From: an uncultured Candidatus Poseidoniales archaeon
GTDB lineage: Archaea > Thermoplasmatota > Poseidoniia > Poseidoniales > Thalassarchaeaceae
Direction of reading: 5' to 3'
Assembly: GCA_964342465.1 (NCBI GenBank)
Contig: CAYFFQ010000001.1
Span: forward strand, 279,691 to 343,690
DNA length: 64,000 bases
Under the pieces are notes generated by a model that was not told the origin of the DNA, did no database searches, and saw only the letters and a list, made by a program, of their open reading frames with translations. The translations under genes were made by a program, and so were the position numbers. Shown piece by piece: positions 36,011 through 61,259 of this stretch. The number at the start of each line of letters is the position of its first letter. Position 1 is the first letter of the stretch.

Positions 36011-37273
36011 ATGATTCCTGGATTCAAGGACTCTGAACTACTGCCCGAACCGGAGGACCCGAGGATGCTTTCCATCATTGACGAGAAGGCTGAAGGATAT
36101 CCTGCAGAGGCGTATGGACTCCCTCCAGAGCGAGACCCTCAGGCATGGAAGGATGCAGATGCCGTGAAACCGAAGAGACCGCGCCGCCTACCTTGGGGGG
36201 TTTGGCTCGTCACCGGATTGGTCATCGTCATTCTCGTGACCTATTCATCAATCGTCGGGTTCATCGATGAGTTCGTCCCCGATTCGGAATGGGCTTACGA
36301 ATCGACAGGAATCAGGTCTCTGAATGGAGAGGGGTGGTATGGTTCAGGTATCCGAGTTTGTATCGTGGATACTGGGATAGAGGTCACTCATCCCGACCTC
36401 ATCTCTGTTAATCTCGTTGGATTCAAAGATTTCATCGATGGCACTGAAGGGGCGCCGCATGACAACGATGTCTCCCAATCACACGGCACGATGATGGCCG
36501 GCATTCTCGTCGCCAACGGCACATTTCAAGGTGCGGCGCCGAGGGTCCAGTTGATTGTCGCCGCCGCCCTAGGCTCAGATGGTGCCTCTGGCTCTGAAGT
36601 CGCCGTAGCAGATGCCATCACTTGGTGTTGGGCGGAGATGGGCGCTCAGATAATCAGCCTCAGTCTCGGTGGAAAACCAGACATTATTTCCACCTTCGGT
36701 GGCCGTACCGAGGCGGCAGTGGAGGATGCTCTTGACAACGGTGTCTTCGTCGTCGCCGCGGCTGGTAATCACGGCGGTCTGGGTCAGGATTACCCCGATG
36801 TGTCAGTCCCATCGAATGTTGAGGGGGTGATCAGCGTCGGCGCAGTACATCGCAACGGGACCCTTTGGGCTCAATCCAGTGGTGGCTCTGCAACCGATGC
36901 CGCAGGGGATGTGAGAGAATGGCCAAACCAGAAACCGGAGATTGTGGCTCCGGGTGTTGACATCCACTCGACCTTCTACTCTGAAAGAACTGGTCCAACT
37001 TGGTCTCGTAGTGACGGCACCAGTGATGCGACGGTCTTTGTCACCGCTGCTCTCTGTCTGATTCTTCAGAAGTATCAAGGAAATCCGGGTATGGAACAGA
37101 GCCACGCAGGCGACAGGGCGCCACTTGAACTGGTCAAGGCTGCGCTCGCCAAATCCGCTTCACCAGCACTCTTCCAAGAAGCAGGAACCCATCATCTGCG
37201 CTATGGATATGGCTCATTGGATGCCGATGCGTGGGCCGATGAAGTCGGCGAGGCGTTGGCTTCTGTCGAATGA
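36011..37273 (+). CDS. subtilisin-like serine protease (S8), N-terminal signal-anchor
   Basis: VCIVDTGIEVTHPDL (Asp), SQSHGTMMAGIL (His), SDGTSDATVFVTAA (Ser). There is a ~60-aa acidic cytoplasmic N-tail, then TM LPWGVWLVTGLVIVILVTYSSIVGF. GAGGTGA (35999-36005) lies 5 nt before ATG 36011; the ORF is open from GTG 36002. Confidence 0.85.
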   Translation: MIPGFKDSELLPEPEDPRMLSIIDEKAEGYPAEAYGLPPERDPQAWKDADAVKPKRPRRLPWGVWLVTGLVIVILVTYSSIVGFIDEFVPDSEWAYESTGIRSLNGEGWYGSGIRVCIVDTGIEVTHPDLISVNLVGFKDFIDGTEGAPHDNDVSQSHGTMMAGILVANGTFQGAAPRVQLIVAAALGSDGASGSEVAVADAITWCWAEMGAQIISLSLGGKPDIISTFGGRTEAAVEDALDNGVFVVAAAGNHGGLGQDYPDVSVPSNVEGVISVGAVHRNGTLWAQSSGGSATDAAGDVREWPNQKPEIVAPGVDIHSTFYSERTGPTWSRSDGTSDATVFVTAALCLILQKYQGNPGMEQSHAGDRAPLELVKAALAKSASPALFQEAGTHHLRYGYGSLDADAWADEVGEALASVE

Positions 37274-37450: not shown

Positions 37451-37492
37451 CTAAGGTGCCTTTCAACAGGTTTGACCAAGGAGTCTGTATCA

Positions 37493-40400
37493 ATGAATGT
37501 GAATAATCGAACAACCAGTCTGTTTCTCGTCGTTTTGTTCTTGGCCAGTTCGCTGACGACCATCGTCAGTGTGGTGCCCGAAGCGATGCCGACAGTGGTG
37601 GCTAGCAATGAAACAACAAGCGGAACCATCACCGGTACGGAGGTGTGGCAGGGTGGGCACATTCTGTCGGGAGATGTTGAGATTGCACCGGGTGCGAAAT
37701 TGATCATCCAACCCGGAACTACTGTGACCTTCCCCAATGGCACCTTCCTCCATGTCAAGGGGAACCTCTGTGCGGCCGATACATCCTGTGGGGCGAATGG
37801 GATGGGTAGCAATTCTAGCCGCGTGACCTTCACTTGGAGCACTCCAACCAATCAATCGCAGACCGGTCGTTGTTATCGGATGCTCAATCCTGCGAGTGGA
37901 CAACCTCTGTGGCATCCCGATGCTTCCTGCTTTGAGGGTGTCTTGGTTCGTGACACGATTGATATCGCCCAAACACGATTCAACCATGTCACCATACAGA
38001 ACGCCTACGGTATGCCGAGGTATGTGCAAGACCTTGGCGAAATCAGGTGGGGTGCATTGATCCTCGATGGTGCCAGCCCAACACTGACCGAGATGAACTT
38101 CAACAACATCAACACCTCAAGTGTACTGACGTTGGACCTCGCTGCACCGATTTTCAATGGTGGAACCTTCCAAGTCGGAGTCGAGGCGGCAGTTGAAACT
38201 CTGGCTGGAAACGCAGTTCAGACCTATGGGGCAGGGAATTCAATCAGTCCGGTACAATTCAACAGTCCAGTGTTTACCGGGACTCAGAATGGCTGTTCAT
38301 CTCAGGACAACGGCAGGCATGTTCTATGGGCTCAGAAATCGTTTGTCGACATCGACCACGGAGTTGTGGCGAGTGCGGATTACGGCTACCGTTACACTGA
38401 CTCTGCCGGCACAATCCATGCCAGTACGATTCAGACAGATTGCACAGGAATTGACATCAATGGTCGATATTCCAATTTCGGCATCGACCATACTTTGGCA
38501 GTGACGAGTAATACCATCACCACCACCGACAATTCTCCTCTCACTGTATACAACCGTGCCCTATCCCATATCGCAGATAATGTGCTCAGCGGCGCCGACC
38601 AAGGTTCGGGGATTCAGGTTGTCTCCTCGGCAGCAGCCGGCCCGACCGAGGCGAGGATAACCAACAACGCTATCGGGCCCATCACCGGCTACAATGGAAT
38701 CTGGGGTGTCGGCAGTTTCGATATGGAGATTGACAACAACACCTTCACCGACATCAACCGCGAACCCCTCATCATCGGCGAGTATCACTACAGCGACAAC
38801 GGTTGGTCCGTCGACGCACCGTCATCCGCCCGCGCAGTCGTGACGGACAATGTGATTACCGGAGTCACGGGAACCTGTGATTCAGAGAAGGTTTGGGACG
38901 AGTCATTCAACTGTCCAGCATTCCACGTGTTCAGAGCCTCGGCAACCATTCAGAGGAACACCGTTTCAGGAGTGGCGGGAGATGCCATCCGCGCCATCGG
39001 TGCGCTCCTCGATGTCCGTGACAACGATTTCGATGTCGGTGGCGAGGGTGCCAAGATAGTTGACCACGGGCACATTTACGCCTCACTTGCGTTCTTCTCT
39101 GGCAACCAGTGGACCAATGTGAGCGACATAGTCTACAATGTCACCAAGAGTTCTCTGACCATTCAGTCTGAAACGATTCCACCGCTGGCCGGCCCAACCT
39201 CACCGATGCCGATTCAACTCAACTGGGATAGGGGTGAGGCATACGAATACAACAACTGGGACAATCAGGTTGTTCTTCCACCGACGACATCCATGCCACC
39301 GCGGGATTTTCCCCTCGCCCTCTCAGCGGTCAACAATTCGACGGTACTGACCTTCGCCAACATGTCGGGACTCAATCTCGCCAAGATACAGATCGCCGCA
39401 TCGCCCAGCATCTGGTCAGTCCAAGTGAGGGAAGCGGCACTGGTTCGCATCCGCGCTACTGTCGGCGGAGTCAGAGTTCCAGGGGCAACCATTCTGTTGG
39501 AAGATGCTCATGGAAACGACCTCTACAACATGCTGACAGACTCACAGGGATTCGCACCGTGGGTCGCCCTGCCCTCAGATTTCCATCTCGACATCAGGGG
39601 TAATGGCCCCAATCCCGATGGCTTCGCCGACGATGAAGGCGAGGACTCCTGTTCCGACGGGATGGATAACGACGGAGACCTGCTATACGATTCTGCCGAC
39701 CCAGATTGCGCAGCAGGCTCGTCGACACGTGAACTCTCGATGTACTTCGTCACAGCATACAAGTTCGGAAAGGGATACCACAAGTCTCAGTTCAACCTCA
39801 CAGGAACCTACGAGGACACAGTGGCGATGACCAACCTCGCTCCAACCACCGTGGTGACTCAGAGTGACGGGCATTCGTTCCTTCGGGTTGTGAACTTCAC
39901 CGGATACGCTTGGGATGGGAATGTCGGTACCGGCGTTTTCGCCACCGATGAAGTCGCCCAGTGGGCACAACAGGGGGCCGTTCAGAGAGTTGAGGTCAAG
40001 ACACCGGATTCATCGTCGTGGAGCGATGTCAGATATGCAACTGATGACAGTGGAGCAAACGGAGAGGTCACCCGCAACAACAGGCCGTTCAAGAACTGGC
40101 ATTTCGAATATGACATGTCCGACCAACCGGAAGGGGATTACACTTTCGACTTCAGAGCCTACGACGGCGTCGACCACAGCCCAATAATCACTCGCACCAT
40201 CAAACTCAACACCAATGCCCCGACGGTGAATGTAGCCTCACCTGTGAACGGGTCTATGCACAATTCTGGAAGCGTAGTCTTCTCAGGAACCGCACATGAC
40301 GATTATGCCGGCGCATTAGGGAGTGACATTCAGGAGATCCATTTCCAGATGTCGAGCCCTACTTGGCCTACCACGACCACTTCGTTGGCTCGCGACCTAG

Positions 40401-41908
40401 ATGGGAACGGAAACCCGATTGGCAGCCTAGCCGAATGGTCATGGGAGTGGGATTTCTCGGTCATGCCGAAGGTTCGTGAGACATGGATTTTCACTATCTG
40501 GGCCTCTGATTCGGGATTCTGCAAAGAGACAATCGGGTCGTGTCAATCAGTCACTTTGATGTTGGATATCGACAACAGCAACGCGGCCCCTGTGGTATCA
40601 CTGCTGGCTCCGTATGAGAATGAGGTGATTACCGCCTCACCGGACACTCTAATCAGTGGAATAGCACGCGATACCGATGGCGCGGTGAGCCGCGTCGAGG
40701 TTGTGATTCTCGACCCGCAGGATGCCCTTAGGGAACTTCCCAACTCGCCACCGTATGTCACTCAGATCGCTGAAAACGGAGTGTGGGAGACCTCTTGGGA
40801 CACCAGCAATCTCATCCATGACTTCCATTACCTGATCCGCGCTCGCTCATTTGACGGACATTCGTATAGTCAGTGGTCGGAGGTTGAGGTAATCATCCAC
40901 AACCCCTTGGACGCTGACAATCGCCCACCTGTGTTTGACAACACCGGTTGGGATGGCGAAGTGATAATCTTCTGTGAGGAAGGCAGCCAAGCATTGGACC
41001 GCTGCGGCAACGGTGGAATTGTGGACCTCGCCCCATTCTTTAGCGACGAGGATGGGGACGAACTCGCATTCGATGTTTGGGATGACCCTGATGTCATCGC
41101 CAACAGCGACCTGAATCACGACCTGCTCTGTGCCGACATCATCTCCATCGCCATCAACGGCCGAGCCACATACGACCCCGTCGGAATGTCGTTCCACACC
41201 TCCGACATGGACCTGTGGAGTTGTGAGGGCATGAAGTTCATCGCCCGAGACGGCTCTTCAACCACCTACAGCATGAATGTAGACTTCATCGTCCGAGCCG
41301 TCACCTTCTCTGTGGAACGGATTGACGGCATCGAGGAGTTGGCAGACGAGCAGACAGTCATACTCACTGGGCAGGGGCGACCTGGTGTCGAAGTTGTTGC
41401 CCGTTCCACCAACACCGGTCTGCGCCTGAACAACACACTGGTCGGTGAGGACGGCACATGGACCATTGAAATCCCGAGCCAAAAACTTGAGACCGGTCTG
41501 AACACGATAGCCTTTGAGTATGACGGTCAACAGACCGGCCAGTCACTTCCTGTTCAGGTCGGCATAGCCGAAAGTGAGGGGGGTCTCGGCTGGGTGCTCT
41601 ATGCAGCGCTCGCACTGTTCGCATTGGCTGTGCTGGTAGGTATCGGCCTCTTCTTCTTCGTGGAGTTTGAGGAAGAATTTGATGAATCAGTTGTCGACGA
41701 GGCCGCCACCCAGCACCACGAAGACCCCTATGCTTGGGGTAAGGAGAGAGAGCAGATAGGGGTCCAATCCGATGCTCATCAGGCGCAAGCGGCATATCAA
41801 CAGCAGGTGGCACAACAACACCAAGCCCAGCATGTCGCCCAACCACAACCCACCTACCCTGGCTGGAAGTGGGACCCTGAGACCAATCAGTGGGTGCCGG
41901 ACCAGTGA
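37493..41908 (+). CDS. giant surface protein with right-handed beta-helix (PbH1-like) repeats, Ig-like modules, TM anchor and Q-rich cytoplasmic tail
   Basis: Signal peptide MNVNNRTTSLFLVVLFLASSLTTIVSV. PbH1-like repeats include ITNNAIGPITGYNGIWG, IDNNTFTDINREPLIIG, VTDNVITGVTG and IQRNTVSGVAGDAIRA. Cys/Asp motif CSDGMDNDGDLLYDSADPDC (~39650-39710). TM GWVLYAALALFALAVLVGIGLFFFV. Tail runs EFEEEFDE...QAQAAYQQQVAQQHQAQ...PGWKWDPETNQWVPDQ. Confidence 0.85.
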   Translation: MNVNNRTTSLFLVVLFLASSLTTIVSVVPEAMPTVVASNETTSGTITGTEVWQGGHILSGDVEIAPGAKLIIQPGTTVTFPNGTFLHVKGNLCAADTSCGANGMGSNSSRVTFTWSTPTNQSQTGRCYRMLNPASGQPLWHPDASCFEGVLVRDTIDIAQTRFNHVTIQNAYGMPRYVQDLGEIRWGALILDGASPTLTEMNFNNINTSSVLTLDLAAPIFNGGTFQVGVEAAVETLAGNAVQTYGAGNSISPVQFNSPVFTGTQNGCSSQDNGRHVLWAQKSFVDIDHGVVASADYGYRYTDSAGTIHASTIQTDCTGIDINGRYSNFGIDHTLAVTSNTITTTDNSPLTVYNRALSHIADNVLSGADQGSGIQVVSSAAAGPTEARITNNAIGPITGYNGIWGVGSFDMEIDNNTFTDINREPLIIGEYHYSDNGWSVDAPSSARAVVTDNVITGVTGTCDSEKVWDESFNCPAFHVFRASATIQRNTVSGVAGDAIRAIGALLDVRDNDFDVGGEGAKIVDHGHIYASLAFFSGNQWTNVSDIVYNVTKSSLTIQSETIPPLAGPTSPMPIQLNWDRGEAYEYNNWDNQVVLPPTTSMPPRDFPLALSAVNNSTVLTFANMSGLNLAKIQIAASPSIWSVQVREAALVRIRATVGGVRVPGATILLEDAHGNDLYNMLTDSQGFAPWVALPSDFHLDIRGNGPNPDGFADDEGEDSCSDGMDNDGDLLYDSADPDCAAGSSTRELSMYFVTAYKFGKGYHKSQFNLTGTYEDTVAMTNLAPTTVVTQSDGHSFLRVVNFTGYAWDGNVGTGVFATDEVAQWAQQGAVQRVEVKTPDSSSWSDVRYATDDSGANGEVTRNNRPFKNWHFEYDMSDQPEGDYTFDFRAYDGVDHSPIITRTIKLNTNAPTVNVASPVNGSMHNSGSVVFSGTAHDDYAGALGSDIQEIHFQMSSPTWPTTTTSLARDLDGNGNPIGSLAEWSWEWDFSVMPKVRETWIFTIWASDSGFCKETIGSCQSVTLMLDIDNSNAAPVVSLLAPYENEVITASPDTLISGIARDTDGAVSRVEVVILDPQDALRELPNSPPYVTQIAENGVWETSWDTSNLIHDFHYLIRARSFDGHSYSQWSEVEVIIHNPLDADNRPPVFDNTGWDGEVIIFCEEGSQALDRCGNGGIVDLAPFFSDEDGDELAFDVWDDPDVIANSDLNHDLLCADIISIAINGRATYDPVGMSFHTSDMDLWSCEGMKFIARDGSSTTYSMNVDFIVRAVTFSVERIDGIEELADEQTVILTGQGRPGVEVVARSTNTGLRLNNTLVGEDGTWTIEIPSQKLETGLNTIAFEYDGQQTGQSLPVQVGIAESEGGLGWVLYAALALFALAVLVGIGLFFFVEFEEEFDESVVDEAATQHHEDPYAWGKEREQIGVQSDAHQAQAAYQQQVAQQHQAQHVAQPQPTYPGWKWDPETNQWVPDQ

Positions 41909-41978
41909 ACTACATCGGTCCACCCGACCAAACCATTGAATGTGTATGGGTGGCGAGCAGAGAGGGGGAGGTGTAGGG

Positions 41979-44498
41979 ATGACGTCAGTGAAGCCGGGTG
42001 TGCAGGAGCGAATCCTTCTACATCTGCGGGACTATGCCGACTATACCGAGAGGGTAGAGGTGCCCTTCGCTCTCTCCCAGATGGGAATAGCCAATGCAGT
42101 GGCCATCGCTCGCAGCAATGTCCCGCGCGCCATCGCTGGCCTCAAGGACAAGGGACTGTTGATTGAAAGACAGACTCATGTCACCGGTGTGACCCGCAAG
42201 CGGAAGGCCTACTTTCTGACCAGCCCTGGAATGACCGTTGCTGACGAGACTTGGGAGCGGCTCTCTTCGCATCCGCTACGAGTCATTTCCGAAGATGGAG
42301 CAGTGCAACACACGACACTTTCAAACGCCATAGAGACCACTCCGTTCACGATTCGTGCAGTTGACATTATCCGCTATATGGATGACAACGGCTTGGTCGA
42401 CCTACGCTCTCTCAATCCGGAATTGATTGAGAGGGATCTTTCCAAACATGTTGAGAAGCAACTCGTCACCTCATTGGAAGACCTGCCGAGAATCCGCAGT
42501 TTCTATGGGCGAGGAAATGAATTGAAAACGATGGTCGACCTTCTGGATGCTCGTTCGACCACAATCCTAGTCCCCGGTATCGCCGGTATAGGAAAGACCG
42601 CTCTCGCTGGAAAACTCATCGAGACCTTCACCCACAAGAGGAATCTTTTCTATCACCGAGTGCAGGATTGGGAGGGCTCACGCGCCTTCTTAGAGGCACT
42701 GAGCGAGTGGCTGGCAGCAATCGGAAATGATTCGTTAGCCACATATCTGTCTGTTACACCCGTTCCGACACCTCAGATGGCTGTTGACTTGGTTGTCGAC
42801 TCACTCGCAGATGTTCCAGCACTGGTAATAGTAGATGACCTGCACAAAGTAGCGGATGAGATTCTCTACGCGGTGATTCGCGGTCTCACCCAACGGATGG
42901 ACGACTTGGATGAGACGGGGCTCATTCTCTTCTCTCGCTCATTCCGGACAGTCGTTCCCCTCAAGGACGCAGAAGGGAAGATCACCACCCTCGTGGTACC
43001 ACTAGACGGGCTAGACAGAGAGGCGTGCAGAAACCTCCTCCCCTCCTTGGAACCTGTGGACGAGGTGACGTACCAACACATCTACGGACTTTCGCGAGGA
43101 CACCCTCTGGTCTTGGACCTCATTAACAGAGGTTCAATTGGAACGACATTCTATGAAACGCTGGAGATGTATGTGGAGAAGGAGATTTTCTCTAAACTAT
43201 CAGGCGGAGAGAAGCGTCTTCTCGGCGCCATAGCGGTGTTCCGTGAACCGATGCCACTTGAGGCACTGAGTGGCCATGACCTAGAGACCGACCTGTTGGA
43301 TGGTCTGGTGGAGAAGGGACTTGTTCGGCTTGCTGACTCGGAGATGTACGATGTTCACGACCTCATAAGAGAGTTCATGACTCGCTCGATTGACGCGGCG
43401 ATGCATACTGAATTGCACGCCCGTGCCTGTGAATGGTATCGGATGCGTCGAGAGCGGCCTGAACATCGGATTGAGTTTCTCTACCACCTGTCACATACCG
43501 GCGATTCGGACGAGTTGGGGACGGAATTGGCTGAAACCGGTGCGGAACTGGTCAACTCGGGTCATATGGAACTATATGCGACTCTTGACCATGTCTCGCG
43601 GGACGATGTGACTGATAGCACCTGGCCGGTCATCTTGGAATTGAAGGCCAATATCCTCTCAATGCAGGGTAGATGGGATGAGGCTCGAGACGATTACAAC
43701 GAGGCCATCGAGATGCTCTCTTCTTCGCGTAAGGATGAACTGATGAGAGCTAGAATCAAATCGAGCCTCGCTGATATTTCCGTGACTCAGGGCAACGCCG
43801 AGGAAGCACTCGCATTGCACAAGGAAGCACTCGAGTCCTTCATCAAACTCGATGACCCGCGCGGGGCAGCGAGAACATACAACAACATGGGCTACATCTA
43901 TCGAAGGTTGAGAGATGATAAACTTGCCATGGAAGTCTATGAGAACGTTGAGGGGCTCCTCGATTCCGAGCAGGACCCTGAACTGGTGGAATCGCGTATC
44001 AAGTTGGCGTCGGCTCTGTTGGAGATGGGAGATTCCGAGAGAGCGAAGGAACACGCCTTCAAGTCGTACGACGAGACCAACGAAGGGGATGATGCTGGAT
44101 TGGCGGCGCGCGCCCGCGCCGTGTTGGGGCGGTATTACTCTAAGACCGGCGACTCCGAACTCGCTCTTCACCACTACACCGAAGCGCTGGCGGGACTCTC
44201 AGAGGAGAGTGATAGTCACGCCGAAGTCGAAATCACCCTGCTGCTCGGTGAAGTTCTCGTCGATGCCGGCCGCAGAGAGGAAGCGATGGACTGCTATCGT
44301 GATGCACTGATGTTGGCCGAGTCGAACGACTACCGCATGCTCATCGGTGAACTGCTCGCTCGCCTCGGCGAGGCTGCTCCTGACAGAAGTCGGCGAATGG
44401 ACTACCTGCAGCGTTCACTGACCGTCTTCAGAGAACTGGGTGCGCGTGAGAGAATGCGGGACATTCAGACCAAGGTCCACCGCGCCTTGATGGGATGA
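41979..44498 (+). CDS. wHTH - STAND/AAA-type P-loop NTPase - TPR regulator
   Basis: GGAGGTG (41967-41973) lies 5 nt before ATG 41979. The N-terminal winged-helix-like segment is LSQMGIANAVAIARSNVPRAIAGLKDKGLLIERQ. Walker A is ILVPGIAGIGKTALAGK and Walker B is ALVIVDDLHKV. The C-terminal third is TPR-like (ARTYNNMGYIYRRLRDDKLAMEVYE, ELALHHYTEALAG, EEAMDCYRDALML). Confidence 0.8.
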   Translation: MTSVKPGVQERILLHLRDYADYTERVEVPFALSQMGIANAVAIARSNVPRAIAGLKDKGLLIERQTHVTGVTRKRKAYFLTSPGMTVADETWERLSSHPLRVISEDGAVQHTTLSNAIETTPFTIRAVDIIRYMDDNGLVDLRSLNPELIERDLSKHVEKQLVTSLEDLPRIRSFYGRGNELKTMVDLLDARSTTILVPGIAGIGKTALAGKLIETFTHKRNLFYHRVQDWEGSRAFLEALSEWLAAIGNDSLATYLSVTPVPTPQMAVDLVVDSLADVPALVIVDDLHKVADEILYAVIRGLTQRMDDLDETGLILFSRSFRTVVPLKDAEGKITTLVVPLDGLDREACRNLLPSLEPVDEVTYQHIYGLSRGHPLVLDLINRGSIGTTFYETLEMYVEKEIFSKLSGGEKRLLGAIAVFREPMPLEALSGHDLETDLLDGLVEKGLVRLADSEMYDVHDLIREFMTRSIDAAMHTELHARACEWYRMRRERPEHRIEFLYHLSHTGDSDELGTELAETGAELVNSGHMELYATLDHVSRDDVTDSTWPVILELKANILSMQGRWDEARDDYNEAIEMLSSSRKDELMRARIKSSLADISVTQGNAEEALALHKEALESFIKLDDPRGAARTYNNMGYIYRRLRDDKLAMEVYENVEGLLDSEQDPELVESRIKLASALLEMGDSERAKEHAFKSYDETNEGDDAGLAARARAVLGRYYSKTGDSELALHHYTEALAGLSEESDSHAEVEITLLLGEVLVDAGRREEAMDCYRDALMLAESNDYRMLIGELLARLGEAAPDRSRRMDYLQRSLTVFRELGARERMRDIQTKVHRALMG

Positions 44499-44560
44499 AC
44501 CGTCATGCTTCTGTGGGGTGAGACCATCCTTCATCTGTCACCATTCGGGGTATCTCTGTT

Positions 44561-44620
44561 CAAGTGCTCAACAGTTCTCCACTCAAGTAGTTCCGTCCAA
44601 GTGCTCGATAGTTCGCCACT
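44561..44620. repeat. 23-bp direct repeat x2 (20/23), period 37 bp, in a convergent gap
   Basis: CAAGTGCTCAACAGTTCTCCACT (44561-44583) and CAAGTGCTCGATAGTTCGCCACT (44598-44620). The second copy overlaps the TAG stop (44619-44621) of the 158-aa pilin-like gene. Confidence 0.75.
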
Positions 44621-49612: not shown

Positions 49613-49627
49613 CAACCCAAAGGGTTG
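49613..49627. promoter_or_regulatory. perfect palindrome CAACCC-AAA-GGGTTG, 31 nt upstream of ATG 49659
   Basis: The core ACCCAAAGGGT is identical to 13446-13456. It is preceded by ATGATAA (49604-49610) and a T-rich box ATTTTGATTTTA (49547-49558). Confidence 0.4.
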
Positions 49628-49658
49628 AGATACCGCAGCGAATGCTGTGGGTGGACAC

Positions 49659-55391: not shown

Positions 55392-55523
55392 ACCGCGCCA
55401 AGAAGAACCCACCTCAGAGTTCCCGAATCGGTTGTTGTTTTGGAGATACGATGCTGACCATCCCGTTGAGTTTTTTGTAGCCAGAAATTTGTTTTGGGTG
55501 GTGCTGGAAACTATGCATTGATA

Positions 55524-55540
55524 TCTGGCCTTAGGCCAGA
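55524..55540. promoter_or_regulatory. perfect palindrome TCTGGCC-TTA-GGCCAGA between two giant genes
   Basis: 7-bp arms with a 3-nt A/T centre. It lies 133 nt after the stop at 55391 and 67 nt before TTG 55608. It is followed by CACCAAAGGGG (55552-55562), a one-base-shorter version of the ACCCAAAGGG core. Confidence 0.3.
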
Positions 55541-55607
55541 GTCAACCGTGACACCAAAGGGGAGATTTCAAAGGTGGCGTTTGACTGTCCGAGCGGGAGG
55601 GGATGTC

Positions 55608-58600
55608 TTGAGAGTGGACAAGAGGAACAATTGTCTTCCTCTCTTCATCTTCCTTCTTTTCGTTATCTCGTCACTCACCCCCCTCATGGAGTTCACCGCC
55701 TCCACCGTATCTGCTAGTGGCGGCGGTCGTCATGTCTACACATTCAGTGATGGCTCCACCGAAGCCATCGCCCTCTATCACAGTGGCCAAAAGGCTACCA
55801 ACATCAAGGTGTCCCTGCCGAAAGGAGCTGAAGTCACGGATGTCGAGATGACTCTTTCGGGCGCTTCTTCGACTGGTTGGAATCAGATCAACCACAACCT
55901 CCGTCCAGATTGGATGGCCGGCGAAGCGCAAGGCACTGACACCCGCTCTGATGACATCTCTCTCGGCTTTACATCCTCAACCCTCAATTTTTCCACCCAC
56001 GGAATGGGTGAGGAATCAGCGTCTGGCACGGCTTGGAGGGACAACGGTTCATTCAGCATACGCCAACCCCATCAGTCCAACGCCTCGGAGACTAGGTTCA
56101 ATCCACAGAGAACCTCGACCTCTCCGTTCTCAAATCAAGGAGCGGGGGCCACCCTGAACTACCGTGGTTGGACCTATGTGTCGACATTTTCCTCCCAGAA
56201 TCTGAACCAACTGGTGAAAAAGACCTATCCGAACAATCTATCGACAGCCTCAACAGTTGTTTTCGAGGAGGGAACTTGCAACATCCCTGCACCAACCGGC
56301 AATCAGTGGTCAGCCTACTATGGATTCAGAGATTGGACCATCGGCGATGACGAGAGGATGTACGGTATTCTTGGCCTTAACCGCCAGAGCGCCGGGGTGA
56401 ACGACCTTGTAATGGTGGTCATGGATGTGCGCTACGAAGATGTCTGGACTTGCATCAACACCTACGACATCTCGGTCAATTCTTTCGGGCCATATACCGG
56501 TATTTCCTACGACAGAAGTAGGGATTTAGTCTGGGTTCTTCACTCTGTTCGGAGTTCTATCCTACCCTACACTTTCAACGACGACGGCACATTTGAGAGG
56601 GATTCATCCCTGCAATACTCATTCTTCACGAGTTATAGTGAGGTGAATGGGCTGGTCGCTCACAACAACCTCTTCTTCTTCCGCAGTAAGGCAAGTTGGA
56701 GTCAGGACCGTCTGGAAGCGTATGCCATCAGCGGGACCTCCACAACCCTCGCAAAACAGACCGGTGAACGCACCATCAGTGCCACCGGTTTCGGCCTCTA
56801 CTACGACGGCAAACGCCTCTCTCTGATTGACCACTATCAGTGGTCGGCGAGATACTTTCGGGAATATGGAAGTGGCTGGGCCTACCCGATTTCAGCCCAG
56901 CCGGGGACTTCAACATGGATTTCCGAGCCGATTGATACACAATCCGATGTGGTTGCCGCCAACATCGGAACCGAATGGAGCGCCAGTTCTGCTGGTGACA
57001 GAGTCGATTACTGGGTCAGTGCTGACAACGGAACACATTGGGTTTCGGTGACCAACAATGAGACAGTCCACTTCGTTAATTCAGGGAATCAACTCCGTTG
57101 GAAACTGCAGTTGGTCGGTGGCACTGCGGTTTCTTGGTGGGTTTCAATGGAGTACTCCACCGACTATGCTGCCACAGGCACTTGGACATCACCGATAATT
57201 CCCACAGGAACACAGGTAGGAACTCTGAAGCCAGCATGGAGTTCCACCACTCCCGCTGGCACATCATTGGATGTCGAAGTCAGTAATGACAATGGTACAA
57301 ATTGGCATACAGCAAGCAACAATCAGATGATAGAGTTGCAGACTCAAGGGGCGCAACTGAAATATCGCCTGACCATGGCGAGTCAGAATTCCGACATCAC
57401 ACCCCTTCTCCACTCTTTCACTCTCGACTATGAAGAAGGATACCCCACCGCGGTCCGACTGGATATCGGAAATGACAATGTCAATGATTACATCGGTTCT
57501 GGTCTGTTGAACTCGCCTGTTGACATCAGTGGGCCGGAACTCGTCAACGCCTTCAATGCGCACATCATCGACAACGGTGTCGGAGTCTCCAACATCACAC
57601 TCGCACTCTCTGCCGGTTCTCCCGGCAGGATAAAAGTCTCCAATCTCGACATCACATACCGTCTCAACACGAGAGTCTTGGATGTTTCAATCGAAGGGGA
57701 CATGTTGGTTCCAGACGGTGAAAACCGCGTGATGCAGGTGCGGGTCGCCGAAGGGGATGAGGCCGACAGAATCGTACAGGTGCAGGTTGAACTGTTGGCT
57801 GATAACTTCAACAACTCAGTGCTTCAGTGGCAGAGTGGCAATTCCTGCGACCTAGTCAGTGACAGTGACAACCTCATCATTTTTGATGCTGGAAACTGCT
57901 CTTCATCGGTGGGGCAAGATGGTTTTCTCTCTCTCCATCTCCCCATACAATCCACTTGGGAATGGAATGACCAGAACGAGGTCGAGGCGGCCATCACGGT
58001 CGATGACGACCTCGGACGACAGGTGAACGGCTGGCAGACCACCGACATGAATGTCAGGGTTGAGAATGATATCTTACTCACCGACTTGGGTGTCGTTGAC
58101 GAGACTGGTCGGGTTCTCCAATCGTCAGACTGGGTCAGAGGTGGTATGACCCTCACATTCTCCGGCGGAATCTACTTTGAAGGAACGACATACACTCCGA
58201 AGGCCGGCCAGTTCAACATTGAACTGACCGGCCAGAACCTCACCATCAATGGTGACCCTGAGGAACCAGAGAAACAGTTCCACATCGAACCGAATCCGAG
58301 CCACGGTGCCTACTCCTTTACCATTGTATCACCTATTGAATCATCACAAGGTGGAATGCTTTTCCGCGTGAAGGCAGTGGCGATGCAGAACGATTCTCTC
58401 TATGTAAATCCGGAGTTCAACTCGGTGAGAATCGTCCTCGACGGCAACAGTCCACTGGTAGTCGATGCCGACCCCGTAGACGGCTCAGAGAGGCACAAAG
58501 GAAACCCGAATCAACCAATTCGCATTGTGGTGCAGGATTCGGTAGACCCCCCTACCCTGTTGACCCTTCACTACTGGCGTCAAGGTCAGGACGACCTGAA

Positions 58601-61259
58601 TTACGACCAGATTCCCGATGAGAATGAATATGTCACAATGTCGCTGAGGACCCCCGAACTCCAGCCAGGAGGTATCAACATCTTCGAGGGTTTGATTACT
58701 GATTCGATGAACAAACACGGCGAACGGGTCTCCTTCTATCTCACCGGCGCAGACGAACAGGGAAATGAACTGGCCATGGGTGGGGGTGCGGTATGTCCGA
58801 GCGACGCTGCTCCGTGCGGGAACCTTCCAAGCCAAACGCTGCCCGACTGGGATGCAGATTTGGTGACCTACCGAATACGAGAGGAATTTGAACCAGAATT
58901 GGTGTTGGATGGCAACACCACCATCGTTGGGCACGATGATTCTGCACCGTTGCACCCCGGTATGACCTACAAGGCGAACCTCAGAGTCTGGGATAACAAC
59001 GGCTGGACCGATATTGAGAACATCAAGATATCACTCGGGGGCTCGTTCGATGACAATGATTCAGCAATCTGGGCCAACTTCACCAAGTTGGCGAATGGCT
59101 CATTGTCGATGTATCTTGAATCTGGGAGTTCTGGTCTCGCCGTCTCGAATCTCTACAGTTCGTTCTCGATAGTGAATGATACTGCCATCGACCTCTCCAT
59201 CAATTTCCAACTCACTTGGCTCTTTCCGGAGGAGTGGGACACAGACGGCGAAGAGACATTCATCCCCGTGATAGAGGTGTTGGATTGGCCGTGTCACGAC
59301 GGCTCAACCCTACCCTGTTTTGAACATCGCGGGGGGTTGGGTAATGACCGCTGGAGCCTAGACAACGACCTCCGTTTCGACATGGCTCCCGGCCATTTCA
59401 CCGCCATCGACCTCGCCACCGGCAGGAATCTCTACACCGGTGGAGATGAGCAGGCGACTATCGCTGCCGGACAGGTCGTCAGAGTGAATGGGCGGATTCT
59501 GTTCAGTGAGGATGAGACTCCCGCCCCAGAAGGTGCTTTCGACATAGTGGTCGGAAACCTCGAACTTGAATGGCGGGCAGTGCCGAGAGAAGGAGGCGAG
59601 TTCACCAGCGATATTCTCGTACCCAACGTCAGAAGCGGACACCTCGACATGATTGCTTGGCTCGAAGAACTGCCCGGACTCGCTTCTGACGAGACCGAAG
59701 AGGCGCCAAGAATCCTGTTGGAGGTGGATGGGGTCTCACCTCAGATAAATGCCATTTCCCCATCGGGTGATATCACCATAGACGGAGCGTCAGCGATTGA
59801 TGTCTTCGTCAATTCGAGCGACGACCACGGATTTATCCCCCAGAGAACGGCAGTTCTCCATTACAAGGTGAAGGCGGGGGAGTCGGAGGTTTCGCGCGGT
59901 TCACAGGAACTTGGAACTCTCCTCGAGGCGTATGGATATGGGCATTGGACGGGTAGTGTCGACCTCACCGATGGCGGTGTCACTGAACTCCTACCGGGTT
60001 ATACAGTGGATGTCTGGGTGACTGGTGCAGATGCCGCCGGTAATCCCTATGTCTCAGAAAACAACACCGAACACGCCCCCCTCACGGTGTGGAGAATCAT
60101 CAGGGTTGGTCCTACAGTGACTCTCACTTCCCTCGATGTTCGCTGGTCTGACGCAACACCCGAATCGGGTGATAATGTTACACTGCACATCTCCGGTGTG
60201 AATGAGAACAGCGAGGAGGGTTCTTTGACTTTCCAATTACAACAGAAGACGAAGGATGGAGATTGGGTTGATGTTCAAGATGGTTCAACAGATTCTTTGT
60301 TGAGACCTGAGGGTGAATTTATCGCCGACATCACGATTGCCACCAACGAAGTCGATGAGGAGACAGTCGAGAGGTATCGATTGGTGGTCAAGGATGGGCA
60401 TGTGATTCTTGACCGAATGTCTCTCGACCCCTTGATTCTACAGCCGCCCATCGCTAGAGATGGGGCCGCCATCAGCGAACAGTTCACAGAGAGAACGGGA
60501 ACGGTTCTGCTCTATCTAGCATTGATGGTGGCCCTCATTGCAATCGTTATTCTTGTCGTCATGAACAGACAGTTGACAGCGCTTGAAATCGACTTGGATG
60601 AAGATGACCATACTGCACAGTTGGCATTAGAGATGGAGCCACCACCGCCGACGGGATTTGACCCCAACTCAGCCCCGCCGCCCGCTGGTTTCGACCCCAA
60701 TGCCCCCCAACCCACCTTCATAGCAGGCGTTGGGGCCGCGAGTTCTCAGGCGACGGACTCAGCGGCGCTAGGACTACATCCTCCAGCAGAAGAGAGAGCA
60801 AATGTCCATCAGACCCATTCATCAGTTCAATCAGCCCAATGGACAGATGAGATGCTGCTGGGGCAGGGTTGGACTCAATGGCAGATAGACACATGGAGGG
60901 CTGGACAAGAGGGGACCTCTTCTCCAACAGGTGGCGACAGCCCGCTTACTACTTCCTCAGCAGTCGTGACTGGCGACCCCTCGCTAGGAGCAGCCACTCA
61001 AGACATCGGCGCGGGGAGCGGAGCGGCCATCTCCACCACAGGAGGTGCCGATGAGCCAGCCTCGCAAGAGTTGCCCGCCAACCATCCCGCTGCCGGATTC
61101 AATTTCAGCGACTCGGTGGTTGATTCAGTCATGTCGGAACACGGCATCACCGACAGGCAAGCCTTCCTCACACATGCGATAGAATTTGACTTCGATGGCA
61201 ACAACTATCTGAACCACAAGGAACTGCAAGAGGCGGCAAAATCGTTCACTAAGAAGTGA
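55608..61259 (+). CDS. giant surface protein, TM-anchored, ~230-aa cytoplasmic tail with Pro-rich repeats and an EF-hand-like loop
   Basis: The ORF is open from 55494. The probable start is TTG 55608 (GGAGG at 55596-55600, 7-nt spacer), giving MRVDKRNNCLPLFIFLLFVISSLTPLMEFTASTVSA. GTG 55614 is the alternative. TM VLLYLALMVALIAIVILVVM (~60501-60565). EF-hand-like DFDGNNYLNHKE (61188-61223). Confidence 0.85.
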   Translation: MRVDKRNNCLPLFIFLLFVISSLTPLMEFTASTVSASGGGRHVYTFSDGSTEAIALYHSGQKATNIKVSLPKGAEVTDVEMTLSGASSTGWNQINHNLRPDWMAGEAQGTDTRSDDISLGFTSSTLNFSTHGMGEESASGTAWRDNGSFSIRQPHQSNASETRFNPQRTSTSPFSNQGAGATLNYRGWTYVSTFSSQNLNQLVKKTYPNNLSTASTVVFEEGTCNIPAPTGNQWSAYYGFRDWTIGDDERMYGILGLNRQSAGVNDLVMVVMDVRYEDVWTCINTYDISVNSFGPYTGISYDRSRDLVWVLHSVRSSILPYTFNDDGTFERDSSLQYSFFTSYSEVNGLVAHNNLFFFRSKASWSQDRLEAYAISGTSTTLAKQTGERTISATGFGLYYDGKRLSLIDHYQWSARYFREYGSGWAYPISAQPGTSTWISEPIDTQSDVVAANIGTEWSASSAGDRVDYWVSADNGTHWVSVTNNETVHFVNSGNQLRWKLQLVGGTAVSWWVSMEYSTDYAATGTWTSPIIPTGTQVGTLKPAWSSTTPAGTSLDVEVSNDNGTNWHTASNNQMIELQTQGAQLKYRLTMASQNSDITPLLHSFTLDYEEGYPTAVRLDIGNDNVNDYIGSGLLNSPVDISGPELVNAFNAHIIDNGVGVSNITLALSAGSPGRIKVSNLDITYRLNTRVLDVSIEGDMLVPDGENRVMQVRVAEGDEADRIVQVQVELLADNFNNSVLQWQSGNSCDLVSDSDNLIIFDAGNCSSSVGQDGFLSLHLPIQSTWEWNDQNEVEAAITVDDDLGRQVNGWQTTDMNVRVENDILLTDLGVVDETGRVLQSSDWVRGGMTLTFSGGIYFEGTTYTPKAGQFNIELTGQNLTINGDPEEPEKQFHIEPNPSHGAYSFTIVSPIESSQGGMLFRVKAVAMQNDSLYVNPEFNSVRIVLDGNSPLVVDADPVDGSERHKGNPNQPIRIVVQDSVDPPTLLTLHYWRQGQDDLNYDQIPDENEYVTMSLRTPELQPGGINIFEGLITDSMNKHGERVSFYLTGADEQGNELAMGGGAVCPSDAAPCGNLPSQTLPDWDADLVTYRIREEFEPELVLDGNTTIVGHDDSAPLHPGMTYKANLRVWDNNGWTDIENIKISLGGSFDDNDSAIWANFTKLANGSLSMYLESGSSGLAVSNLYSSFSIVNDTAIDLSINFQLTWLFPEEWDTDGEETFIPVIEVLDWPCHDGSTLPCFEHRGGLGNDRWSLDNDLRFDMAPGHFTAIDLATGRNLYTGGDEQATIAAGQVVRVNGRILFSEDETPAPEGAFDIVVGNLELEWRAVPREGGEFTSDILVPNVRSGHLDMIAWLEELPGLASDETEEAPRILLEVDGVSPQINAISPSGDITIDGASAIDVFVNSSDDHGFIPQRTAVLHYKVKAGESEVSRGSQELGTLLEAYGYGHWTGSVDLTDGGVTELLPGYTVDVWVTGADAAGNPYVSENNTEHAPLTVWRIIRVGPTVTLTSLDVRWSDATPESGDNVTLHISGVNENSEEGSLTFQLQQKTKDGDWVDVQDGSTDSLLRPEGEFIADITIATNEVDEETVERYRLVVKDGHVILDRMSLDPLILQPPIARDGAAISEQFTERTGTVLLYLALMVALIAIVILVVMNRQLTALEIDLDEDDHTAQLALEMEPPPPTGFDPNSAPPPAGFDPNAPQPTFIAGVGAASSQATDSAALGLHPPAEERANVHQTHSSVQSAQWTDEMLLGQGWTQWQIDTWRAGQEGTSSPTGGDSPLTTSSAVVTGDPSLGAATQDIGAGSGAAISTTGGADEPASQELPANHPAAGFNFSDSVVDSVMSEHGITDRQAFLTHAIEFDFDGNNYLNHKELQEAAKSFTKK

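What the first reader, a model, noticed from the sequence alone, without database searches (positions are those of the whole stretch)
36011..61259. 25-kb envelope module: anchored subtilase, three giant surface proteins, a wHTH-STAND-TPR regulator and an MBL + three-pilin-like operon
Seen: from 36.0 to 61.3 kb every gene is envelope-related or regulatory.
- N-anchored S8 protease (36011-37273).
- 1471-aa beta-helix protein (37493-41908).
- wHTH/P-loop/TPR protein (41979-44498).
- A convergent operon of an MBL hydrolase followed by three proteins with pilin-type N-termini, joined by 1-nt and 4-nt stop/start overlaps (49232 down to 44619).
- A 1910-aa Ca-repeat protein (49659-55391).
- A 1883-aa protein with an EF-hand-bearing tail (55608-61259).
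Established: class III signal peptides mark subunits of archaeal type IV pilus-like filaments, and STAND NTPases act as ligand-gated regulatory switches.
Inference: this is one co-regulated attachment or particle-processing apparatus. Filament subunits, giant adhesins, a protease and a dedicated regulator are encoded together, while the assembly ATPase, platform protein and prepilin peptidase lie elsewhere. I know of no characterised system with this composition.
Basis: partly seen in the sequence, partly recalled or inferred. Interest (0 to 1): 0.8.

Follow-up and report, generated by a model that had tools for sequence, protein, structure and literature searches.

The report
Orphan pilin-like trio in conserved MGII surface locus
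Marine Group II archaea, the most abundant planktonic archaea at the ocean surface, all carry the same ~35-kb block of cell-surface genes; its least expected part is three tightly coupled pilus-subunit-like proteins encoded without any pilus motor nearby, but whether the block works as one machine is unproven.

Summary
All listed genes are present at the stated coordinates. The three small genes 44619-48306(-) have conserved class III (type IV pilin-like) N-termini and overlapping stop/start codons.

The block is longer than reported. It begins with a 3194-aa AglB/STT3 oligosaccharyltransferase at 26327-35911.

In 82 of 82 related loci, all Poseidoniales (both families, down to 34% identity), gene order and strand are identical. 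275 species genomes encode the middle protein.

The trio is an order-specific pilin set:
- p354 and p736 match Pfam DUF7289, but only in the N-terminal helix.
- p158 resembles DUF7266.
- In another Thermoplasmatota contig, a DUF7289 to DUF7266 pair sits directly behind a PilB ATPase and two TadC genes.
- AlphaFold models show a ~60-residue N-terminal helix followed by beta-sandwich domains.

No ATPase, platform protein or prepilin peptidase lies within the window or 10 kb on either side.

The "single co-regulated apparatus" reading is only partly supported. All loci descend from one lineage, and a housekeeping Nudix gene is syntenic too, so the gene order may simply be inherited. The EF-hand and beta-helix calls are weak in this copy, and the MBL is a generic cytoplasmic hydrolase.

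I found no paper that describes the locus. I rate it a new variant of a known kind, of moderate interest.

The parts
26327..35911 (+). Giant (3194 aa) AglB/STT3 oligosaccharyltransferase. About 14 N-terminal TM helices, catalytic WWDYG at residue 972, roughly 2100 aa of extracellular domains (CarboxypepD_reg, CARDB) and a C-terminal TM helix.
   Evidence: Pfam STT3 E=4.4e-14. TM map. WWDYG. Present in the same place and strand in 52 loci, that is, wherever the contig reaches it.
36002..37273 (+). N-terminally membrane-anchored S8 subtilase (alternative start 36011).
   Evidence: Peptidase_S8 134 bits. TM helix 67-85. D123/H161/S341. 40-73% identical orthologues in 60 loci.
37472..41908 (+). 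1478-aa type I surface protein: signal peptide, Ig-like domains, C-terminal TM helix 1379-1397 and a Q-rich cytoplasmic tail. Orthologues carry a Beta_helix domain.
   Evidence: Beta_helix in orthologues.
41940..44498 (+). Cytoplasmic wHTH - P-loop (AAA_16/STAND) - MalT-like TPR regulator. Within the block it has the highest maximum identity to orthologues (51-87%; the MBL, at 55-79%, has a higher minimum).
   Evidence: TPR_MalT 50.3 bits, AAA_16, HTH_Crp_2. Walker A GIAGIGKT and Walker B VIVDD. Identity range.
44619..45095 (-). p158, a small pilin-like protein (DUF7266-like). N-terminal motif D(D/E)xAAATE(L/I)GY(V/I)FTFLLG.
   Evidence: N-terminal conservation. DUF7266 hits in 4/15 orthologues. 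The L088 orthologue matches profile positions 4-141 of 145 at E=2.1e-5. Its start overlaps the p736 stop by 4 nt.
45092..47302 (-). p736, a large pilin-like protein. Leader MRRRMDEEA, then VSAAIATVLLFAGV. The model has a 60-residue helix, multiple beta-sandwich domains and a conserved C-terminal module.
   Evidence: DUF7289 in 14/24 orthologues, best E=1.6e-7, covering only profile positions 2-76. AF2 pLDDT 79, pTM 0.81, helix 7-67. Restricted to Poseidoniales.
47302..48306 (-). p354 (334 aa from the ATG at 48306; the ORF extends to 48366), a pilin-like protein. Motif (R/D)(A/G)VSE(I/V)LGVxMLLAMV, a 60-residue helix and Ig-like sandwiches.
   Evidence: DUF7289 E=3e-3, Pilin_N E=0.26. AF2 pLDDT 82, helix 3-62. 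N-terminus aligns with that of p736 at hhalign probability 90%.
48432..49232 (-). Cytoplasmic MBL-fold hydrolase (266 aa) upstream of the trio on the same strand. Substrate unknown.
   Evidence: Lactamase_B and Lactamase_B_2. HHHSDH. Only generic NCBIfam, PDB and PADLOC similarities. Always adjacent; 55-79% identity. Present in L088 despite a missed gene call.
49233..49646 (.). Divergent intergenic region between the MBL/trio unit and the giant A/B unit. It holds a species-specific 28-nt direct repeat (49354-49381 and 49414-49441).
   Evidence: The repeat is not conserved in relatives.
49647..55391 (+). Giant A: a 1914-aa secreted, very acidic protein with thrombospondin type 3-like Ca-binding repeats. 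Signal peptide, no TM anchor, 39 N-glycosylation sequons.
   Evidence: TSP3_bac 27.7 bits, 7 stretches. DxDxDG sites. Topology.
55494..61259 (+). Giant B: about 1860-1920 aa, start uncertain (55494, 55608 or 55686). Signal peptide, TM helix 1671-1689, ~230-aa cytoplasmic tail with one EF-hand-like loop. Absent from four Poseidoniaceae loci.
   Evidence: EF-hand_1 only E=0.2. Missing in L062, L065, L076 and L079.

Best explanation
This is the core cell-surface gene block of Marine Group II archaea (order Poseidoniales).

Shown:
- Ten genes in three transcription blocks keep the same order and strand throughout the order: (i) giant AglB, anchored subtilase, beta-helix/Ig giant, STAND regulator; (ii) MBL, p354, p736, p158; (iii) giant A, giant B.
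- The trio p354-p736-p158 is translationally coupled. All three proteins have short charged leaders, a small residue at -1, a conserved polar or acidic residue just after it and a hydrophobic helix. For p354 and p736, AlphaFold models extend this into a ~60-residue helix capped by beta-sandwich domains.
- Their N-termini match DUF7289 and DUF7266. These two families occur as an adjacent pair, in the same order (large then small), directly downstream of a PilB-type ATPase and two TadC genes in another Thermoplasmatota contig.

Inferred:
- The trio is an orphan pilin set.
- A prepilin peptidase encoded elsewhere cleaves the three proteins after the conserved A/G.
- A type IV filament motor encoded in trans (archaellum FlaI/FlaJ or a PilB/TadC pair) extracts them from the membrane.
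- Because of their bulky, unequal globular domains, they form a short heteromeric pseudopilus or a filament tip/priming complex rather than a long homopolymer.
- The conserved but low-confidence C-terminal loops (p736 671-709, p354 289-311) are probably subunit or partner interfaces.
- The surrounding giants are probably N-glycosylated (15-39 sequons each) by the co-encoded AglB, and may be trimmed by the anchored subtilase.
- The STAND protein is the likeliest local transcription switch.
- Physical coupling between the trio and the giants is plausible but untested.
For: - Gene content and motifs.
- Order-wide identical order and strand: 82/82 loci, 38 with all ten genes, 275 species with p736. 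This includes the most divergent full-length clade, on a 67% GC contig.
- Coupling: the p354 stop lies 21-36 nt before the p736 motif in 68/69 loci; the p736 stop lies 24-48 nt before the p158 motif in 69/69.
- N-terminal motif conservation.
- DUF7289 in 14/24 p736 orthologues. DUF7266 over the full profile in a p158 orthologue.
- p736 profile positions 1-132 match P0324 residues 8-138 at 30 bits.
- P0324 context: T2SSE/PilB3_C, T2SSF, T2SSF, DUF7289-like, DUF7266, DUF2341. The pair recurs in L090 and L091.
- Lollipop models.
- Euryarchaeal pilin sets are often encoded apart from the ATPase/TadC genes, and large all-beta minor pilins are known (PMC4858521).
Against: - No ATPase, TadC or A24 peptidase lies in the window or 10 kb on either side, or in any of the 82 loci.
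- Half of the Thalassarchaeaceae genera are reported to lack the archaellum operon (PMC6461757). Yet the trio is found in all 82 examined loci from both families and in 275 species genomes. A motor may therefore be missing in some genomes.
- DUF7289 similarity covers only the N-terminal ~70 profile positions, and the window copies score below Pfam thresholds. Pilin_N reaches only E=0.26.
- No small major-pilin candidate is present in the window.
- Fold and sequence searches of the globular parts found nothing informative.
- The PilB/TadC link rests on a single contig.
- Synteny comes from one lineage, and a flanking housekeeping gene is also syntenic.
Confidence: 0.5

Rival explanations
1. Neighbourhood only. 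The ten genes are a vertically inherited, collinear stretch of the streamlined Poseidoniales chromosome. The trio, the giants, AglB, the protease, the MBL and the STAND protein each do their own job (general N-glycosylation, envelope proteins, a housekeeping hydrolase, a global regulator). There is no shared regulation or assembly.
For: - All 82 loci are from one order, and p736 has no relatives outside it. The conserved order therefore counts as one event.
- The Nudix/pyroglutamyl-peptidase gene keeps its flanking position even where giant B is missing.
- Three separate transcription blocks lie on both strands.
- The MBL-to-p354 gap is variable.
- Intergenic repeats are not conserved.
- AglB appears to be a general enzyme; the oligosaccharyltransferase is reported as highly transcribed in MGII (PMC9723583).
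- Many other anchored surface proteins lie upstream in the window.
Against: Order and strand are kept for ten genes down to 25-35% protein identity between the families, without a single rearrangement in 82 loci. That is more than is usual for unlinked genes, although no genome-wide background could be computed here. The trio itself is clearly one operon.
Confidence: 0.3
2. Membrane-anchored complex, not a filament. The pilin-like N-termini are not processed or polymerised. They serve as single TM anchors of a heterotrimeric surface complex, for example a stalk or anchor for envelope proteins, comparable in logic to class III-signal proteins that do not build pili.
For: - No assembly machinery nearby.
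- The archaellum operon is absent from half of the Thalassarchaeaceae genera.
- The subunits are very large and unequal, and there is no major pilin.
- Pilin_N is not significant.
- p158 lacks a charged residue at -2.
Against: - The residues around the putative cleavage site are strictly conserved, and there is an invariant Glu at the start of the hydrophobic helix. A plain anchor would not need either.
- The trio is homologous to a family pair that sits in a PilB/TadC operon.
- The predicted helices are 60 residues long, much longer than a TM span.
Confidence: 0.15
3. Defence or nucleic-acid function. Either the STAND NTPase with the MBL hydrolase (and subtilase) forms an AVAST-like antiviral system, or the MBL with the pilin-like trio forms a competence-type DNA-uptake pseudopilus.
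For: Weak similarities only: NCBIfam Avs1a E=0.005 and ComEC E=0.02 for the MBL. MBL orthologues hit the Anti-Pycsar_Apyc1 Pfam family. STAND-plus-effector architectures are typical of defence systems.
Against: - PADLOC gives only generic TPR, P-loop, MBL-motif and subtilase hits and no system-specific model.
- The genes are universal, single-locus and 51-87% conserved across a whole order. Defence islands are patchy by comparison.
- The STAND protein carries a wHTH rather than a nuclease or protease effector.
- The MBL is a small soluble protein without ComEC channel domains.
Confidence: 0.04

Closest known systems
Euryarchaeal type IV pilus 'pilin sets' (Makarova et al. 2016, PMC4858521), e.g. 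the arCOG02911 minor pilins and the accessory pilins of the Haloferax PilB3/PilB4-type loci
   Same: - Class III-type N-termini.
- Several different pilin-like genes in one operon.
- Large all-beta (Ig-like) subunits.
- Pilin sets that can be encoded apart from the ATPase/TadC genes.
- Lollipop models.
   Different: - The globular domains have no detectable relatives outside Poseidoniales.
- No PilA-type major pilin accompanies them.
- The set is embedded between a STAND regulator, an MBL hydrolase, giant adhesin-like proteins and a giant AglB.
- arCOG membership could not be tested with these tools.
Pfam DUF7289 / DUF7266 pair in a Thermoplasmatota PilB-TadC-TadC operon (locus L089; P0324)
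   Same: - Same order: a large DUF7289-like protein followed by a small DUF7266-like protein.
- Shared N-terminal ~130 residues (p736 profile against P0324, 30 bits).
- Shared G(F/Y)(I/V)LTF motif in the small subunit.
   Different: - L089 has the ATPase and platform genes in cis and a DUF2341 protein downstream.
- Poseidoniales has two DUF7289-like genes, no motor and no DUF2341.
- Central domains differ: HINT/fn3 in P0324 against novel beta-sandwiches in p736.
- The window copies score below Pfam gathering thresholds.
Bacterial minor (pseudo)pilin tip complexes (GspI-J-K of type II secretion; FimU-PilVWX of type IV pili)
   Same: Working analogy only: several unequal, co-translated pilin-like proteins, one of them much larger, that are thought to prime or cap a filament rather than form its shaft.
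   Different: No sequence or fold match was found. This resemblance comes from general knowledge and is a lead, not a test.
MalT-type STAND transcription regulators
   Same: HTH plus P-loop NTPase plus MalT-like TPR sensor region (TPR_MalT 50.3 bits; NCBIfam MalT E=1.5e-12 over the TPR part; Walker A/B).
   Different: The HTH is N-terminal and winged-helix (Crp/MarR-like), not a C-terminal LuxR type. Ligand and target promoters are unknown. AAA_16 is below its Pfam cut-off.
Archaeal AglB oligosaccharyltransferase
   Same: STT3 domain, multi-spanning N-terminus, WWDYG catalytic motif.
   Different: 3194 aa. To my knowledge, characterised AglBs are about 600-1000 aa. About 2100 extra extracellular residues and a second, C-terminal TM anchor. 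Fixed position at the head of this block in all loci that reach it.

Membership tests
Archaeal type IV pilin-like proteins (class III signal peptide) | Short charged leader, small residue (G/A/S) at -1, then an uninterrupted hydrophobic stretch of about 20 residues | tested here: met
   p354 ...(R/D)(A/G)|VSE(I/V)LGVxMLLAMV; p736 ...(D/E)(A/G/S)|VSAA(I/V)ATVLLF; p158 ...AA(A/S)|TE(L/I)GY(V/I)FTFLLG. Conserved across orthologues from 72 loci. Leaders are about 6-15 aa. p158 lacks the charged -2 residue.
Archaeal type IV pilin-like proteins (class III signal peptide) | Extended N-terminal alpha-helix carrying a beta-rich globular head (lollipop) | tested here: met
   AF2: p736 helix 7-67, then all-beta (pLDDT 79, pTM 0.81). 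p354 helix 3-62, then Ig-like sandwiches (pLDDT 82). p158 was not modelled.
Archaeal type IV pilin-like proteins (class III signal peptide) | Significant match to Pfam Pilin_N (PF07790) | tested here: not met
   p354 E=0.26, 12.6 bits against a cut-off of 25.2. No hit for p736 or p158.
Archaeal type IV pilin-like proteins (class III signal peptide) | Cleavage by an A24 prepilin peptidase (PibD/FlaK/EppA) | not testable with these tools
   Needs proteomics or a heterologous cleavage assay. No peptidase gene lies in the window or 10 kb on either side.
Archaeal type IV pilin-like proteins (class III signal peptide) | Genomic or functional association with a PilB/FlaI ATPase and a TadC/FlaJ platform | tested here: inconclusive
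   None in 82 Poseidoniales loci. The related DUF7289/DUF7266 pair does sit behind T2SSE-T2SSF-T2SSF in L089. Whole genomes could not be scanned.
Pfam DUF7289 (PF23960) | Score at or above the gathering cut-off (27 bits) with coverage of the 238-position profile | tested here: inconclusive
   Window p736: no hit. Window p354: 17.5 bits. 14/24 p736 orthologues hit, best 31.6 bits, but only over profile positions 2-76.
Pfam DUF7266 (PF23928) | Score at or above the gathering cut-off (27.6 bits) | tested here: inconclusive
   Window p158: no hit. 4/15 orthologues weak (best E=0.0037). The L088 orthologue scores 24.7 bits over profile positions 4-141 of 145.
STAND NTPase / MalT-like regulator | P-loop NTPase with Walker A and B, a C-terminal TPR sensor array and a DNA-binding domain | tested here: met
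   GIAGIGKT at 213 and VIVDD at 295. TPR_MalT 50.3 bits (cut-off 45) and TPR_12 81.7 bits. AAA_16 (28.4 against 32.6) and HTH_Crp_2 (22.9 against 27) are sub-threshold.
Subtilase S8 | Asp-His-Ser catalytic triad in the S8 order | tested here: met
   DTG at 123, HGT at 161, GTS at 339-341. Peptidase_S8 134 bits.
Metallo-beta-lactamase fold hydrolases | HxHxDH metal-binding motif within the MBL fold | tested here: met
   HHHSDH at residue 58. Lactamase_B 54 bits, Lactamase_B_2 50 bits. No subfamily assignment was possible.
AglB/STT3 oligosaccharyltransferase | STT3 membrane domain and the WWDYG motif | tested here: met
   STT3 53.3 bits. WWDYG at 972. About 14 TM helices.
EF-hand Ca-binding domain (giant B tail) | Significant EF-hand profile match | tested here: not met
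   EF-hand_1 E=0.2, 11.8 bits against a cut-off of 25.4. Only the 12-residue loop pattern DFDGNNYLNHKE is present.
AVAST/STAND anti-phage defence systems | Match to system-specific PADLOC models; patchy distribution | tested here: not met
   Only generic TPR, P-loop, MBL and subtilase hits. The genes are universal and syntenic in the order.

The most novel reading that the evidence does not exclude
The trio, the giant Ca-binding and beta-helix proteins, the anchored protease and the giant AglB together build a Poseidoniales-specific surface organelle. In this reading, a short heteromeric pilin stalk displays or anchors glycosylated giant adhesins. It is assembled independently of the archaellum, is present in every member of the order, and is switched by the co-encoded STAND regulator. 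It would be the universal attachment or particle-contact device of the ocean's most abundant planktonic archaea.
Probability: 0.15. Interest if true: 0.8.

Novelty: new variant of a known kind. Interest (0 to 1): 0.55.

Why it matters
Marine Group II archaea are uncultured and among the most abundant microbes at the ocean surface. How they contact particles and phytoplankton is an open question, so far discussed mainly in terms of the archaellum operon, which half of the MGIIb genera are reported to lack (PMC6461757).

This block occurs in all 82 examined loci from both families of the order and is unannotated ("hypothetical protein" in every source). It contains the only pilin-like genes I found in the window. 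It also holds thrombospondin-type giants already suspected of adhesion and an unusually large oligosaccharyltransferase.

If the trio really is a motor-less pilin set, it gives concrete targets for metaproteomics, cryo-ET and heterologous expression. It also poses a clear question about which machinery assembles it in genomes without an archaellum.

If the block is only a collinear neighbourhood, it is still a useful marker locus and a catalogue of the conserved MGII surface proteome.

Tried and rejected
- Foldseek of both AF2 models against the PDB gave only low-TM jelly-roll or Ig-like hits, which are uninformative.
- Profile searches of the three families against PDB sequences found nothing.
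- P0191 looked like an MBL-p354 fusion. The sequence is frameshifted read-through, so I rejected it.
- L088 appeared to lack the MBL. tblastn finds it at 59% identity; the gene caller had picked an antisense ORF on a 67% GC contig.
- The intergenic direct repeats (49354-49441 and 44550-44623) were tested as possible operator sites. They are unique in the window and absent from relatives, so they are not conserved sites.
- The sigma-70 and terminator scans were at background level, and those models do not apply to archaea.
- The PADLOC scan for a defence reading gave generic hits only.
- tblastn of the L089 DUF7266 protein and the P0324 N-terminus against annotated plasmids, looking for haloarchaeal contexts, found no match.
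- The last homologue search and the metagenome scan for more DUF7266 contexts gave one protein and two short contigs. They confirm the DUF7289 to DUF7266 pair but not the ATPase link.
- hhalign of the trio profiles against single L089 proteins was not significant.
- Rinke et al.'s supplementary files contain no flaK/flaI/flaJ entries that would tell which genera lack a peptidase.
- Nine literature searches found no description of this locus, of DUF7289/DUF7266, or of non-archaellum pilins in MGII.
- Synteny outside the order could not be tested, because p736 has no full-length relatives there.
Full report
**Source and setting**

The window is archaeal. It encodes CDP-archaeol synthase and an AglB/STT3 oligosaccharyltransferase. 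Every relative of its proteins that carries a taxon name is Marine Group II: Poseidoniales, Thalassarchaeaceae or Poseidoniaceae. The source contig is a 231-kb metagenome assembly.

The ORF map reproduces every gene in the finding, allowing for alternative start codons.
- The S8 protease has one N-terminal TM helix and an intact Asp/His/Ser triad.
- The 1478-aa protein has a signal peptide, Ig-like domains, a C-terminal TM helix and a cytoplasmic tail. A Beta_helix domain is called only in orthologues.
- The 852-aa protein is wHTH + P-loop + MalT-like TPR, with Walker A and B motifs.
- On the minus strand, an MBL hydrolase (HHHSDH) is followed by three ORFs of 334/354, 736 and 158 aa. These overlap by 1 nt and 4 nt.
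- Giant A carries thrombospondin type 3-like Ca-binding repeats.
- Giant B has a TM helix and a ~230-aa tail. Its "EF-hand" is only a loop-pattern match (EF-hand_1 E=0.2).

There are two corrections. First, the MBL is a soluble protein of unknown substrate, so it is neither envelope-related nor regulatory. Second, the envelope-rich stretch starts earlier than 36 kb. A 3194-aa AglB with catalytic WWDYG lies immediately upstream at 26327-35911, and more anchored surface proteins lie further upstream.

**The trio is pilin-like**

- Motifs. Across orthologues from 72 loci the N-termini are strongly conserved: (R/D)(A/G)VSE(I/V)LGVxMLLAMV in p354, (D/E)(A/G)VSAA(I/V)ATVLLF in p736 and AAATE(L/I)GY(V/I)FTFLLG in p158. 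Each has a short charged leader, a small residue at the putative -1 position and a hydrophobic helix. p354 and p158 also keep a Glu just after the site, which a plain membrane anchor would not need.
- Specificity. A FlaFind-like scan of all window ORFs returns only p354 and p736, plus one borderline signal peptide.
- Structure. AlphaFold2 models built from homologue alignments are reasonably confident (pLDDT 79 and 82). Both show a ~60-residue N-terminal helix followed by beta-sandwich domains, the pilin lollipop shape.
- Relationship between p354 and p736. They align with each other only in the first 43 residues.
- Pfam. 14 of 24 p736 orthologues match DUF7289 (best E=1.6e-7), but only over the N-terminal ~70 profile positions. 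p354 matches weakly (E=3e-3), and Pilin_N is not significant. p158 orthologues match DUF7266, one of them over the whole profile at E=2.1e-5.
- Globular parts. They have no detectable relatives in the PDB by fold or by sequence.

**The link to type IV filament systems**

An exhaustive HMMER search of the p736 profile against 1.84 billion representative proteins found 135 hits. About twelve are full-length clusters of 715-768 aa, and the rest are fragments of the same family. The one outsider is P0324.

P0324 is a 1205-aa class III-signal protein. Its first ~130 residues match the p736 profile at 30 bits. Its contig (L089) reads: PilB-type ATPase (T2SSE + PilB3_C), TadC, TadC, P0324 (DUF7289-like), a 217-aa DUF7266 protein (E=1.2e-8), then a DUF2341 protein. 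The closest named relative of its DUF7266 protein is from a Thermoplasmatales archaeon, which is the same phylum as Poseidoniales. Two further metagenome contigs repeat the pair of a large DUF7289-like gene followed by a DUF7266 gene.

p736 followed by p158 therefore mirrors a gene pair that belongs to a canonical archaeal type IV pilus operon. Published comparative work describes the same pattern: euryarchaeal pilin sets often encoded apart from the ATPase/TadC genes, and large all-beta minor pilins (PMC4858521).

**Conservation of the block**

275 species-level genomes encode a p736 relative. All 80 retrieved loci, plus three found through exact-protein look-ups, were compared with the window proteins.
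- Order and strand of giant AglB, S8, beta-helix giant, STAND, p158, p736, p354, MBL, giant A and giant B are identical in 82/82 loci.
- 38 loci contain all ten genes. The others are truncated by contig ends or by the 10-kb flank limit.
- The same holds for the most divergent full-length clade, on a 67% GC contig.
- Identity ranges are 51-87% for STAND, 55-79% for the MBL and 31-72% for the trio.
- Coupling inside the trio is invariant. The p354 stop lies 21-36 nt before the p736 motif in 68/69 loci, and the p736 stop lies 24-48 nt before the p158 motif in 69/69.
- The MBL stop lies 87-455 nt before the p354 motif.
- Giant B is missing from four Poseidoniaceae loci.

**What this does and does not show**

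The trio is one operon and is a core Poseidoniales gene set.
- All loci come from one order, and the family does not exist outside it. There is no independent replication and no case of the block moving as a unit.
- The Nudix/pyroglutamyl-peptidase gene next to the block is also syntenic across families. General chromosome collinearity is therefore a live explanation.
- I could not compute a genome-wide background.
- No ATPase, platform protein or prepilin peptidase lies in the window, in 10 kb on either side, or in any related locus.
- Half of the Thalassarchaeaceae genera are reported to lack the archaellum operon (PMC6461757). Which motor serves the trio, if any, is therefore the key open point.

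**Mechanism proposed (inference)**

The three proteins are inserted into the membrane and cleaved after the conserved A/G by a prepilin peptidase encoded elsewhere. A type IV filament motor encoded in trans then assembles them into a short heteromeric pseudopilus or a filament tip/priming complex. Their size and inequality argue against a homopolymeric shaft.

Two conserved segments are modelled with low confidence: p736 671-709 and p354 289-311. Both contain invariant residues, so they are candidate interfaces.

The giants carry 15-39 N-glycosylation sequons each and are plausible substrates of the adjacent AglB. The anchored subtilase may process them, and the STAND protein is the obvious candidate regulator. 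None of these couplings is demonstrated.

**Rivals**

- A collinear neighbourhood without functional integration (0.30).
- An uncleaved, membrane-anchored heterotrimer (0.15).
- A defence system or a DNA-uptake device (0.04). This is disfavoured by generic-only PADLOC hits and by universal, fixed-locus conservation.

**Novelty**

Nine literature searches found no description of this locus, of DUF7289/DUF7266, or of non-archaellum pilin-like genes in MGII. Every source annotates the trio as hypothetical.

The thrombospondin-type genes and archaella of MGII are known (PMC6461757). I classify the finding as a new variant of a known kind: an orphan, order-specific pilin set of the archaeal type IV filament superfamily, embedded in a conserved surface-protein and glycosylation block.

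Noticed in passing
window 26327-35911 (+): A 3194-aa AglB/STT3 oligosaccharyltransferase with WWDYG at residue 972. After the catalytic domain come about 2100 extra extracellular residues (CarboxypepD_reg, CARDB, 50 sequons) and a second, C-terminal TM anchor. To my knowledge it is several times longer than characterised AglBs. It is conserved at the head of the block in all 52 loci that reach it.
   Followed up: partly
window 12268-13374(-), 18166-19185(+), 19266-20222(+), 22222-24102(-): Several unannotated surface proteins share one layout: signal peptide, C-terminal TM helix, then a short, very acidic cytoplasmic tail ending in a D-D-L-type motif (...PLDDLDL, ...FELDDL, ...EDLDDL, ...IDFDDL...). 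This may be a shared sorting or anchoring signal.
   Followed up: no
window 2271-7214 (-): A 1647-aa secreted protein with six lamin-tail domains (LTD, E=1e-79) and two PLD-like phosphodiesterase domains. It is a candidate surface nuclease or phospholipase.
   Followed up: no
window 13456-15474 (+): A second S8 subtilase (672 aa) with a signal peptide and a C-terminal TM anchor, 20 kb upstream of the one in the finding.
   Followed up: no
window 44550-44623 and 49354-49441: A 37-nt tandem direct repeat (78% identity) lies in the convergent STAND/p158 gap. A 28-nt direct repeat (82% identity, 60-nt spacing) lies in the divergent MBL/giant A gap. Both are unique in the window and are not conserved in related loci.
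   Followed up: partly
window 22222-24102 (-): The 626-aa CARDB protein has an N-terminus (MARG|TLVTGLVVLVCL) that passes a FlaFind-like pattern. It could be a further class III signal or an ordinary Sec signal peptide.
   Followed up: no
window 62788-63891 (+): A fusion of a pyroglutamyl peptidase (Peptidase_C15) with a NUDIX hydrolase. It keeps its position next to the block in both Poseidoniales families, even where giant B is absent (L062, L065, L076, L079).
   Followed up: partly
L088 8600-9000: In the 67% GC relative, the MBL-p354 spacer is expanded to about 400 nt. It contains an approximately 40-nt tandem repeat (…CCGTTCAGACCCTCG…). The public gene call there is an antisense ORF that hides the MBL gene.
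   Followed up: partly
L001 12651-16288 and 1-7896: One Poseidoniaceae genome (a 551-kb lagoon contig) has three extra small genes (54, 89 and 281 aa) inserted around the STAND gene. Its giant A region is called as three shorter genes (788, 813 and 334 aa). This is either a real split or long-read frameshifts.
   Followed up: no
window 41700-41908 (C-terminus of the 1478-aa protein): The cytoplasmic tail after the TM anchor is Gln-rich and ends in YPGWKWDPETNQWVPDQ, a Trp-rich motif of unknown significance.
   Followed up: no
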